Assembly (NCBI GenBank): GCA_965197925.1
Contig: CBDAOC010000011.1
Span: 1-39,714 of the forward strand
Direction of reading: 5' to 3'
Length of the DNA: 39,714 nt
DNA from: Nitrososphaerales archaeon
GTDB taxonomy: Archaea; Thermoproteota; Nitrososphaeria; Nitrososphaerales; UBA213
Part shown: one piece after another, positions 30,001-33,000 of the stretch
Numbering within the stretch: position 1 is the stretch's first letter
Layout: each line of letters opens with the position of its first letter
Made by a program: the position numbers

Positions 30001-33000
30001 ATTGTTGTATCAGGTAATGGTTTACTACAACTACTTGACAGGAAGGCCTCTTAGGGCATTGAAGCACATTCTTGGAAGTTAATCAATCAGATGCATCAAG
30101 TTATTTTTGTTATATGGAATAATGCCCATGCCTCAGTTAGTTAGGGACACTTATACAACAAATATTGTTGAAAATAATTTGAGCTCCTTGGTGCACCCAT
30201 CTGCAGATATTTCAGGCTCGAACAATCATGATTAAAACTATGAATTTGAAGAACCAATAAGATAATCGGGCTTACCATAAAATGATTAAGTGATGATAAT
30301 TTGACAATGGAATCTAGTATGTAGGATTATTATGAATAAGGGAACTGACGAAGAAAATGCATGTCAAAGGAATAGTTATCAAATCCATGGGGTGGTAGTT
30401 TGCACCTCAACCAAGTAGTGAGTGCAATAATGCTTTGAAGACATTGAAGGAGCCTGGACCGGCCACAAGAACCTATGATTCTATGCAAGGAAATTACGAG
30501 AATAAGATCGATTTTGATTTTTAGCAAATATCATCAAGAGGTACGATGATGTCTAGTCATAAAGCCTTAGAATCATATGAATATTGTTATCTTATCCTAT
30601 AGTTTCTTTATTTCGGCTATGATATTTTCGACTACCTTATCAGGCGGTCTGTTCATCTGGATATCTATAAAAGGAGATTTTTCTCTGTAATAACCTATGA
30701 GCGGTTCTGTCTGTTCTTCATAAACTTTGAGACGAGATTCTATAACTTCAGGTTTGTCATCACTCCTCTGATAGAGTTGGTTACCACACTTGTCACACAC
30801 CCCCTCCTTTTTGGGTAAGAGAGCAGGTAGATCATAATCGACTCCGTCGACGTTCTTTCGGATATCCGCAATGTTATAGTTACCATCGCACGAAGAGTTG
30901 CTACATATTCTCCTAGCAGAAATTTTCTCAACCAAGATTTCCTTTTGAGTATTAATATTAATAATAGCATCTATTTTTGCAATTTTCTCTAGCTCTTTTG
31001 CTTGAGCAACGGTCCTGGGGAAACCATCCAGAATAAACCCATTTTTTGTGTCCGGCTGAGATATCCTTTCCTTAAATATTCTAATCACGATCTCATCAGG
31101 AATAAGTTCGCCACGTTTCATCATTCCCGCGACTTCTTTTGCAAAATCGTCATCCCTTTTTGCTATATCACGAAAAATGTCTCCAGTGGAAATCTTTGCA
31201 ATTCCTAGATCTCGATTCAAACGCATGGAATACGTTCCTTTTCCTGATCCAGGAGGACCCAATATTATAAGCTGCATTTCTATAACAAACTATTCGGTTT
31301 AATTTAAGGATTCCTTTGTAGACCCTTCCGCTTTATGAATAAATGTTCTAATAATACTATTTATTTAATATTTTCTCCCCTTCTTGGTTTATGCTGTAGC
31401 TTTATTGGGTTCTTTTGGCCCAAAGATGGCTTGGGATGGCAGGGTTGAGTAGAACTTTTCAACCATGGAATTGTTGGTATTACTAAAAAAGGGAATGAGT
31501 GACACATATGTCTGTGTGTTTGGATACAATCATGGGAAGCAACTTTGCCAACTTTAATTATTATATTCATCCATGAAAACGTATTAGAGGGAAGAAGTAA
31601 AGGTCTATGAAAAATACCATGGAGACTCCAAAAAGAAGAACAGTAAGTACTCTCTTTAGATTCTTTTCATTAACTTTCTTACCTATGAGCATTCTGGTTC
31701 CAATCCTAGTACCCAACAGAGTTCCCCCTGCTAGAATAACTGCGCGAAGGAAATCTGTGTTGGCTAGTGCTGTATGAATTGCTAATCCAGAACCAGCGAG
31801 TATAGCTACTGCCAATAATGAAACAGGGCTGGAAAAACGCATAGGGATTGCGAACATGGCAAGAAGCAAGGGCATAAAGATCACACCCCCTCCGATGCCA
31901 AAGAGACTAGATACTATGCCAGCAAAAAAGCAAGATACATAAACTATGATCAGTTTATGAGACTTTACATCCTTCAGAAGCTTTTTTACTGCCTCTGTGG
32001 ATTCGATAATTTTCGGGTTCTTCTTGAGTCTTCCCCTTAGGAGTGTAATACCCGCTACTAACAAAGTTACAATTGCAAAGATAAGTTTGAAATGTGCCAT
32101 GCTTATGGAATCAGCAATGTAGGCACCTATCACCGCGCCAGGGACTGCAAATACAATTAGTCTTAAGGCCAAAGAATAAGTGAGGAGTTTCTTTTTTGCA
32201 TAGACATAAGATGAAGAGGATGCATTTGTACATGCAGCAAAGAGACTTGTGCTAGCCACCATGTATGGAGGATAACCCATGAAGCTTAAAGCAGGTACAA
32301 ACAAAAATCCTCCAGCCAGTCCTACCATTGACCCCACCAAACCACCAACTATGCCGATCACAGCCAGAATCACCAAGTCGAGAACCATTGCCCCTTGTCC
32401 TCTATTGGTGTTTAAATTACTTCCTAAAAAATAAGATCAAGGAATATAATCGATGTAAGAAATTTGATGATATTAAAAATATAATGTATTTGCCTTAGTA
32501 ATGATAAAAGATAAAATATTTGTTTGTAGTAAATAACAAGTATAGATTATGAGTAGTACAATTATTGATAAACCACTTAGAGAGGGCCGGATCAAGTGCT
32601 ATGTAAAGGAATGCAAGGGCGAGGTAAAGCGCTCGGCTTGTATTCGCGTTAATGGTGGTAAACTACTGGTATTCTTTTGCGTTAAACACTGGGAAAAATA
32701 TGTTGACAAACTCTACTTTAAGCGACATGGAACAAATTATTAATGTATAATTTGACCTGGGAAATTTACTAAAAAGTCATTACTTGATCCGAATTTATCC
32801 AAATATTACGAGACCCGGTTAAGAGAAATTGTTCGACATTTTTCCCTTGACCGTTCGTCTATTTGCATTCTATGTGGAAAATAATTTTGAAGGTGGAAAA
32901 TTTTAATAGGGAAGAGGGCATTTACATTAATGAAGATTGAGTGCGTCCTCCGTATTACAAATAGCGATCAAGACATTTCAGCTGATGCTAAGTAGTCCTG

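What a model noticed while it worked through the whole genome (the two positions that open the first line are those of the whole stretch)
30597..31277. Archaeal AdkA and NDK both lost, replaced by a LID-type adenylate kinase and pyruvate kinase
The genome has lost both nucleoside-diphosphate kinase and the archaeal adenylate kinase AdkA from their conserved, otherwise intact loci (C20:660153-660429, between rpl24e and aIF5B; C19:237801-238114, between secY and the EMC3-like gene). It instead carries a bacterial-type LID adenylate kinase (g00337) and a pyruvate kinase (g01252, C18:11176-12615). Across the family the two gene sets are mutually exclusive, pointing to a double non-orthologous displacement in nucleotide metabolism.
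Evidence so far: Call 57: NDK intact in 6 of 9 genomes, absent in G000 and G004, broken by 6 stops in G008. Call 147: AdkA full in the same 6, absent in G000 and G008, an 83-codon remnant in G004. Calls 148 and 152: LID-Adk and pyruvate kinase in exactly G000, G004 and G008, and in 0 of the other 6. Call 155: both flanks are syntenic with G003 at 73-78% DNA identity while the kinase genes are gone, with a 46-aa NDK-like remnant (48%, E 0.001) at C20:660375-660509. Call 153: among named close hits of the Adk are several Aenigmarchaeota proteins at 57-64% identity.
(Added by a program. Inside this text positions count along the whole contig: contig position 1 is position 1 of the stretch shown here. 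"Call 12" and the like, gene names such as g00115 and contig names such as C1 are that model's own, and its searches are not shown. The text may have been shortened before it was handed on; [...] marks where a part breaks off. The agent that wrote the report below was given it as the finding of a first reader that could run no searches.)

Follow-up and report, generated by a model that had tools for sequence, protein, structure and literature searches.

The report
Adenylate kinase that may replace NDK
An ammonia-oxidising archaeon has let two normally universal nucleotide kinases decay and instead carries a borrowed adenylate kinase with an altered nucleotide pocket; the same enzyme type sits in other archaeal lineages that also lack nucleoside-diphosphate kinase, so it may do both jobs, which is not yet tested in the lab.

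Summary
Confirmed with corrections. Window 30597-31277 is an intact zinc-LID adenylate kinase. ndk and adkA are decayed relics at their conserved loci. The three affected genomes (G000, G004, G005) are probably one clade, and ndk decay dates to its base: one event, not three. The Adk is not of bacterial origin. It belongs to an archaeal subfamily (Aenigmarchaeota-rich) with Lys for E. coli Arg119, a 10-14-residue LID hairpin and a changed selectivity loop, all at the ATP-adenine pocket. In a matched 151-genome class sample, NDK was found in 0 of 8 carriers, 5 of 5 genomes with ordinary LID-Adk and 131 of 138 others. At least three separate host lineages carry it and lack NDK; one also lost adkA, with pyruvate kinase in only 2 of 6 tested. 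Pyruvate kinase is an ordinary thaumarchaeal type, usually found beside NDK. Best reading (0.6): this Adk replaces both AdkA and NDK (ADP+NDP to AMP+NTP). Against: only about three independent events, two carriers keep intact NDK, many Aenigmarchaeota lack NDK without it, and no assay exists.

The parts
30597..31277 (-). Long (zinc-LID) adenylate kinase of an archaeal K118/LID-hairpin subfamily, 226 aa
   Evidence: catalytic and AMP-site residues match E. coli K13, T31, R36, R88, Q92, R123, R156, D158, D159, R167; AlphaFold pLDDT 92.5; GC3 0.35, at the genome median; covered by RNA-library contigs in 3 runs of one study
31230..31259 (-). P-loop (residues 7-15) followed by Tyr16 where most bacterial Adks have Gln
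   Evidence: Tyr in 24 of 24 core members; bacterial residues
30924..30926 (-). Lys118, at the position of E. coli Arg119 (cation-pi partner of the ATP adenine)
   Evidence: Alignment and numbering; invariant in 57 homologs; Arg in 28 of 29 comparison Adks; role of Arg119 from PMC10778088 and PMC11313852 passages
30828..30869 (-). 14-residue LID insertion (residues 137-150), a predicted beta-hairpin just before the E. coli Phe137 position
   Evidence: strands 139-143 and 146-150 at pLDDT about 95; co-occurs with Lys118
30645..30659 (-). Selectivity loop (residues 207-211) with Met208 where E. coli has Gly198
   Evidence: Met in 22 of 24 core members and 0 of 29 comparison Adks; role of the loop from PMC9635829 passages
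31567..32388 (-). TauE/SafE-family membrane protein, next to the adk in G000 and G005
   Evidence: Pfam PF01925; synteny
32937..33266 (+). 109-aa protein without a Pfam match, linked to the adk in G000, G004 and G005
38031..39377 (+). Sulfatase linked to the adk in G000, G004 and G005 (84-88% identity); marks one shared insertion site
29020..30083 (+). IS copy downstream of the adk; in G004 and G005 this side holds a TIM-barrel gene and hppA, which lie on C20 in G000

Best explanation
The ancestor of G000, G004 and G005 (ammonia-oxidising archaea) gained a long-type adenylate kinase from another archaeon, and also gained or kept a pyruvate kinase. At about that time its ndk and adkA lost function and have decayed in place since. 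SHOWN: gene content, relics, one gain, timing, and the altered pocket residues. INFERRED: the enzyme keeps a standard AMP site but has a rebuilt donor-base pocket (Lys for Arg119, a LID hairpin beside the Phe137 position, a changed selectivity loop), so it accepts any NDP or NTP there. Running ADP + NDP to AMP + NTP and AMP + ATP to 2 ADP gives the net NDK reaction, so one protein makes both AdkA and NDK dispensable. Pyruvate kinase (fed by PPDK or PCK) is at most a helper.
For: Matched class sample of 151 genomes: NDK in 0 of 8 subfamily carriers, 5 of 5 ordinary-LID-Adk genomes and 131 of 138 without LID-Adk. A species tree forces at least 3 separate host lineages. In the second lineage rpl24e and aIF5B are adjacent in 6 of 6 loci (spacers about 63-239 nt), secY is followed directly by the EMC3-like gene in 5 of 5, and PK was found in 2 of 6 tested. 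G114 and G115 keep AdkA, carry the subfamily Adk and have no NDK match, which fits a job other than AMP phosphorylation. Aenigmarchaeota-phylum sample: NDK in 3 of 28 carriers against 47 of 83 others. Lys118 and the insert are coupled: 43 K+insert, 61 R without, 1 exception of 105 rows; 13, 16 and 2 exceptions among 31 cluster representatives. The three altered elements are those named for the ATP-adenine pocket. Precedent: NDK-less Thermotoga maritima, whose AMP kinase made all tested (d)NTPs by the reverse reaction, and OdinAK, which uses all NTPs through its selectivity loop. ndk relic divergence 0.47, 0.28, 0.35 matches neutral terminal branches 0.435, 0.275, 0.315.
Against: No enzyme assay. 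Only about three independent events; on the Adk gene tree just 2-3 independent pairs exist and the sign test is not significant. The nominal Fisher p values (1e-9, 2e-5) overstate because kin are counted. Two carriers have an intact ndk next to the adk (G358, G312) and G352 has a 47-aa fragment. 27 of 42 Aenigmarchaeota with an ordinary LID-Adk also have no NDK match, so the insert is not needed for NDK absence there. Eukaryotes carry the K+insert form too and presumably have NDK (not tested). The NDK base rate around G114 and G115 was not measured, and both have PK. Completeness was not shown for G111 onward. In the trio the Adk and PK appear together, so this genome alone cannot separate them. 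Ordinary Adks already have some NDP-kinase activity.
Confidence: 0.6

Rival explanations
1. One reading: the LID-Adk replaces AdkA only, and pyruvate kinase (PEP + NDP to pyruvate + NTP, with PEP regenerated by PPDK, AMP by Adk and PPi recovered by the membrane pyrophosphatase) replaces NDK in this clade.
For: PK occurs in exactly the three NDK-less family members and forms one clade (97). PPDK and HppA are in 9 of 9 family genomes, and hppA has moved next to the adk in G004 and G005. Mycoplasma precedent (PMC6609329 passage); PK makes many NTPs.
Against: 33 of the 37 PK-positive order genomes have an NDK match that is not the broken G005 copy. The trio's PK lacks the Arg of E(Q/H)xxR, like its relatives in NDK-positive genomes. 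Four of 5 tested genomes of the second lineage have neither NDK nor PK. The PK loci are not syntenic among the three.
Confidence: 0.15
2. No dedicated substitute: NDK is dispensable once several promiscuous kinases (any long Adk, CMP kinase, PK, succinyl-CoA synthetase) are present in slow-growing or host-associated cells. The subfamily's link to NDK absence is shared ancestry plus chance, and the pocket changes serve something else such as stability or a GTP preference.
For: E. coli without Ndk is said to be compensated by PK, succinyl-CoA synthetase and Adk (PMC12934123 passage). Three NMP kinases of T. maritima have NDK activity. NDK is missing in 61 of 111 Aenigmarchaeota-phylum genomes. 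Few independent events. RNA holders are labelled sponge metagenome.
Against: NDK is nearly universal in this class, and 10 of 10 ordinary-LID-Adk genomes outside Aenigmarchaeota in the tree set keep it. NDK loss coincides with this subfamily in three lineages, and the relic clock puts the loss at the node of the gain.
Confidence: 0.22
3. Assembly or binning artefact: the adk contig is foreign and ndk and adkA are unassembled.
For: G000 is 5.4% contaminated and several contigs deviate in tetranucleotide profile.
Against: C11 correlates 0.991 with the genome profile. The same adk neighbourhood occurs in G004 and G005, and the Adk tree follows the species tree. Both loci are assembled in contigs of 0.6-1.1 Mb with relics in place.
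Confidence: 0.03

Closest known systems
Long zinc-LID adenylate kinases (B. subtilis 1P3J, ancestral 5G3Y, E. coli 1AKE)
   Same: Fold (TM 0.73-0.80), P-loop, AMP-site and catalytic arginines, four-Cys LID.
   Different: Lys for Arg119, 14-residue LID hairpin, Tyr16, Met at Gly198. No such form appeared among the listed solved structures; the only R119K is an engineered E. coli mutant (6S36).
Thermotoga maritima, NDK-less, with broad-scope AMP kinase and PK (PMC10248530, passages)
   Same: No NDK; NTPs made by NMP kinases through the reverse reaction.
OdinAK, universal-NTP adenylate kinase (PMC9635829, passages)
   Same: Donor-base promiscuity through an altered selectivity loop.
   Different: Trimeric archaeal AdkA type with a long Gln176 loop, not a long LID type; not linked to NDK loss in the passages read.
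Mycoplasma replacement of ndk by glycolytic kinases (as cited in PMC6609329, passage)
   Same: NDK absent, PK present.
   Different: A glycolytic heterotroph; here an ammonia oxidiser whose PK shows no specialisation, and other carriers lack PK.
AdkA-to-LID-Adk swap in families f5, f7, f13 (this work)
   Same: adkA missing after secY, LID-Adk elsewhere.
   Different: A separate Adk clade with Arg119 and no insert; NDK kept in 7 of 7.
Plasmodium GTP:AMP phosphotransferase GAK (recalled, not verified)
   Same: From memory it prefers GTP or ITP and may belong to the eukaryotic K+insert clade, which here includes Vitrella, Alphamonas and Siedleckia.
   Different: No call returned its sequence or paper; a lead only.

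Membership tests
Long (LID) adenylate kinase, TIGR01351 | Score over the curated cut-off | tested here: met
   215 bits against 168
Long (LID) adenylate kinase, TIGR01351 | P-loop Lys, AMP-site T31/R36/R88/Q92, catalytic R123/R156/D158/D159/R167 | tested here: met
   Alignment to E. coli Adk
Long (LID) adenylate kinase, TIGR01351 | Four-Cys zinc LID | tested here: met
   C125, C130, C161, C164 invariant in 57 homologs; zinc binding itself not tested
Canonical ATP-selective long Adk (E. coli type) | Arg119 stacking on adenine, Phe137 pocket, Gly198-Lys200 loop | tested here: not met
   Lys118; insert before the Phe137 position; Met208
Archaeal trimeric AdkA (NF003122) | Score over cut-off and place after secY | tested here: not met
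   No G000 match over cut-off; only a relic after secY
Nucleoside-diphosphate kinase (PF00334) | Intact ORF with catalytic His | tested here: not met
   No match; relic with stops and frameshifts, His lost in G000 and G004
NDK substitute (works like NDK) | Phosphorylates non-adenine NDPs at a useful rate | not testable with these tools
   Needs an assay; only distribution and pocket evidence here
NDK substitute (works like NDK) | Complementary distribution with NDK over independent lineages | tested here: inconclusive
   Strong counts and at least 3 host lineages, but too few independent pairs and 2 intact exceptions
Universal-NTP Adk (OdinAK type) | Extended selectivity loop with a Gln donor/acceptor | tested here: not met
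   Loop is of normal length, and Asn209 is not among the diagnostic columns
GDP-preferring pyruvate kinase | E(Q/H)xxR motif on the A-alpha2 helix | tested here: not met
   Glu and His present, Arg absent in all three
Pyruvate kinase (TIGR01064) | Score over cut-off, intact frame | tested here: met
   528.8 against 306.4 bits
Ca. Nitrosomirales (host lineage) | Placement with named reference genomes | not tested

The most novel reading that the evidence does not exclude
The K118/LID-hairpin adenylate kinases are an unrecognised, naturally evolved class of two-in-one AMP/NDP kinases. The gene moves between archaeal phyla and, wherever it settles, lets the host discard nucleoside-diphosphate kinase and often its own adenylate kinase. 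A related form in protists may include the GTP-using apicomplexan enzyme. It would explain how many NDK-less DPANN and other archaea make their NTPs, and would show a way to close the LID without Arg119.
Probability: 0.4. Interest if true: 0.8.

Novelty: new variant of a known kind. Interest (0 to 1): 0.63.

Why it matters
NDK is almost universal in this class (108 of 111 and 136 of 151 genomes matched), and how NDK-less prokaryotes make GTP, CTP, UTP and dNTPs is usually put down to unspecified promiscuity. Here a recognisable, horizontally moving Adk subfamily tracks the loss, and its diagnostic residues sit on the adenine pocket of one of the best-studied model enzymes. That turns a vague gap into a one-week assay, offers a sequence marker for filling this gap in archaeal metabolic models, and could give a single-enzyme NTP-making catalyst. 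If the assay fails, what remains is a well-dated single double displacement with two surviving archaeal pseudogenes.

Tried and rejected
Clade test with 14 markers: did not group the three genomes (G007 and G008 interleaved, weak support). With 35 markers they group (FastTree 0.988, or 0.935 on shared columns; IQ-TREE mixture model SH-aLRT 90), on a very short branch, so monophyly is likely rather than certain; bootstrap runs did not finish. Three parallel ndk losses: considered because no lesion is shared by all three (0 of 92 invariant sites), rejected because each relic's divergence equals its whole terminal branch. G023 as another NDK loss: uninformative, aIF5B not found in the assembly. 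G099 LID-Adk: lies on a bacterial-looking contig, treated as contamination. First adkA DNA profile: spoiled by an insertion in G006, redone without it. Tyr16 as marker: also in NDK-positive G012 and in Adks without the insert. Asn209 as an OdinAK-like residue: not diagnostic. Metagenome scan: returned generic Adks and no new trio relative with context. Profile search: dominated by repeat-like multi-domain proteins; only 31 single-domain hits used (a first pattern match failed). Atlas searches named no GTP:AMP cluster. In one search the flanking genes had no RNA cover; this is not used as evidence. Polyphosphate kinase 2 and acetate kinase were sought only by recalled motifs (none found), too weak to claim absence. 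Earlier scan findings were not available.

Full report
OBSERVATION. The window is contig C11 of G000, an ammonia-oxidising archaeon (amoA; 98.7% complete, 5.4% contaminated). ORF 30597-31277 (-) is a complete long-type adenylate kinase. C11 matches the genome's tetranucleotide profile (r 0.991) and the gene's GC3 equals the genome median. G000 has no NDK and no AdkA. Over 111 genomes of the order, NDK matched in 108 (counting the broken G005 copy), AdkA in 97, LID-Adk in 11 and PK in 37. These tallies include G107, and the class tally below includes G246; both are flagged unpublished, and no conclusion depends on either.

CORRECTIONS. ndk survives as a relic between rpl24e and aIF5B in all three genomes (shuffle test; G000 C20:660080-660416). 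adkA is a clear relic in G004 and a faint one in G000 (C19:237801-238097; significant against two of three references). G005 says nothing about adkA, since secY was not found there.

ONE EVENT. A 14-marker tree did not group the three. A 35-marker tree did (0.988 FastTree, SH-aLRT 90), on a short branch. They also share the adk neighbourhood (109-aa ORF, sulfatase) and a relocated hppA, and their Adks (100) and PKs (97) each form a clade. At codon positions invariant in the six intact genes, the relics have diverged by 0.47, 0.28 and 0.35 (95% ranges 0.32-0.64, 0.18-0.40, 0.24-0.48), against neutral terminal branches of 0.435, 0.275 and 0.315 from four-fold sites. So ndk lost constraint at about the base of the clade. 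The estimate is rough (simple correction, biased base composition).

WHAT THE ADK IS. Its closest named relatives are archaeal: Aenigmarchaeota, Nanoarchaeia, Brockarchaeota and other Nitrososphaeria. A core clade of 25 rows (96) has NDK in 1. The core differs from comparison Adks by Lys118, a 14-residue LID insert, Tyr16 and Met208. Mapped on E. coli Adk, Lys118 is Arg119, the insert lies just before Phe137, and Met208 is Gly198 of the selectivity loop. PMC10778088 names the ATP recognition loop, Arg119 and Phe137 as the adenine pocket, and PMC11313852 says Arg119 drives LID closure by a cation-pi contact. The AMP site and catalytic residues are standard. AlphaFold gives a confident Adk fold with the insert as a beta-hairpin; I could not measure distances to a ligand. 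Lys118 and the insert (10 or 14 residues) occur together in 104 of 105 rows (rows chosen by similarity to the query) and in 29 of 31 less biased cluster representatives.

DISTRIBUTION TEST. The five genomes with the closest named Adks have no NDK match; two keep AdkA and three have PK. As a matched control I searched one 151-genome class sample twice (it overlaps the order sample in part): NDK in 0 of 8 carriers, 5 of 5 ordinary-LID-Adk genomes and 131 of 138 others (inserts checked). Six of the eight carriers were placed on a species tree and form one lineage, far from G000; with G114 and G115 this forces at least three host lineages. In that second lineage ndk is missing from its assembled locus in 6 of 6 and adkA in 5 of 5 examined, and PK was found in 2 of 6 tested: a second double displacement, mostly without PK. 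Families f5, f7 and f13 swapped AdkA for an ordinary LID-Adk and kept NDK in 7 of 7. In a 111-genome sample of the Aenigmarchaeota phylum, NDK matched in 3 of 28 carriers and 47 of 83 others.

AGAINST. These are about three independent events; the gene tree gives 2-3 independent pairs and no significance. G358 and G312 carry the insert Adk beside an intact ndk, though G312's copy is long-branched with an altered P-loop. Among 42 Aenigmarchaeota with ordinary LID-Adk that I aligned, 27 have no NDK match. Completeness of G111 onward was not reported. A eukaryotic clade has the same K+insert form, so it exists where NDK is expected. No assay was possible.

PYRUVATE KINASE. It is intact, nested among PKs of NDK-positive relatives, and has the Glu and His but not the Arg of the GDP-selectivity motif described in 10.1101/2024.06.25.600556. 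The DLPG-K signature suggests the potassium-independent type (label recalled). With PPDK and HppA (9 of 9 family genomes) it could still make NTPs, so it remains a rival or helper.

EXPRESSION. Contigs from three sponge metatranscriptome runs of one study cover 30607-31260, the adk ORF, at 99% identity or more. DNA in an RNA library cannot be excluded; this is a hint only.

MECHANISM. Most likely (0.6) the Adk supplies both activities: ADP + NDP to AMP + NTP, then AMP + ATP to 2 ADP. PMC10248530 reports this route for NDK-less T. maritima, and PMC9635829 shows that a changed selectivity loop can make an Adk accept all NTPs. Rivals: distributed promiscuity with a coincidental link (0.22), PK as the main substitute (0.15), artefact (0.03).

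LITERATURE SEEN. 10.1101/2024.06.25.600556: parts 1-2 of 4. Passages only: PMC6609329, PMC10248530 (its supplement, which may hold the T. maritima Adk sequence, was unreadable), PMC10778088, PMC9635829, PMC11313852, PMC10811736 (no mention of kinase in the main text; supplements not read), PMC4177761, PMC2680645, PMC12934123. Pollack 2002, Rogne 2018 and Rogne 2019 were seen only as citations; Lu and Inouye 1996 and Plasmodium GAK are recalled. Ten full-text searches (listings only) showed no report of NDK loss in ammonia-oxidising archaea or of this subfamily; the library lacks most subscription journals.

VERDICT. A real, single, dated double displacement. New variant of a known kind; interest 0.63.

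Noticed in passing
L486:381-1370 (G288) and L487:343-1332 (G320): 329-aa fusions of a LID-less adenylate kinase and NDK in two Aenigmarchaeota-phylum genomes; adk and ndk are also adjacent in many others.
   Followed up: partly
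P0346, P0309, P0377, P0390, P0456, P0467: A eukaryotic clade (Vitrella, Alphamonas, Siedleckia, Aphanomyces, Leptophrys, Petalomonas; SH-aLRT 94 with unnamed rows) has the same Lys and LID insert, nearest to Aenigmarchaeota forms.
   Followed up: partly
window 33874-37121: Two further sulfatases with GC3 0.57 and 0.53 and a deviating tetranucleotide profile, probably recent arrivals beside the older one at 38031-39377.
   Followed up: no
window about 5240-7600: Two IS copies facing each other, 99.8% identical over 1086 bases; the family has dozens of copies in the genome.
   Followed up: no
L212 (G006), secY-adkA junction: An insertion of about 2.5 kb with a 13-base direct repeat separates secY from an intact adkA at their overlap.
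   Followed up: no
G000 C20:660080-660154 and the same stretch in G004 and G005: The last 25 codons of the ndk relic are much better kept than the rest in all three genomes, which suggests a signal for the downstream aIF5B gene.
   Followed up: no
L230, L117, L115 against L243-L248: hppA left its ancestral locus in G000, G004 and G005 only and sits beside a TIM-barrel gene, near the adk in G004 and G005.
   Followed up: partly
L118:467-1975 and L114:12630-14069: The G004 and G005 pyruvate kinases each have a change in an otherwise conserved motif (Arg to Ile in PTRAE; Glu to Ala after the MLS motif), possibly relaxed selection.
   Followed up: no
L249 (G005:C37), L122 (G099:C10), L115 and L116: Bacterial-looking contigs in two assemblies, and a duplicated contig pair in G005 that explains its two adk copies.
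   Followed up: no
window 8803-10777 and 18636-21566: A folE/queE/queC-like cluster and a cytochrome c oxidase cluster (names from the translations, not scanned); they look like ordinary host genes.
   Followed up: no
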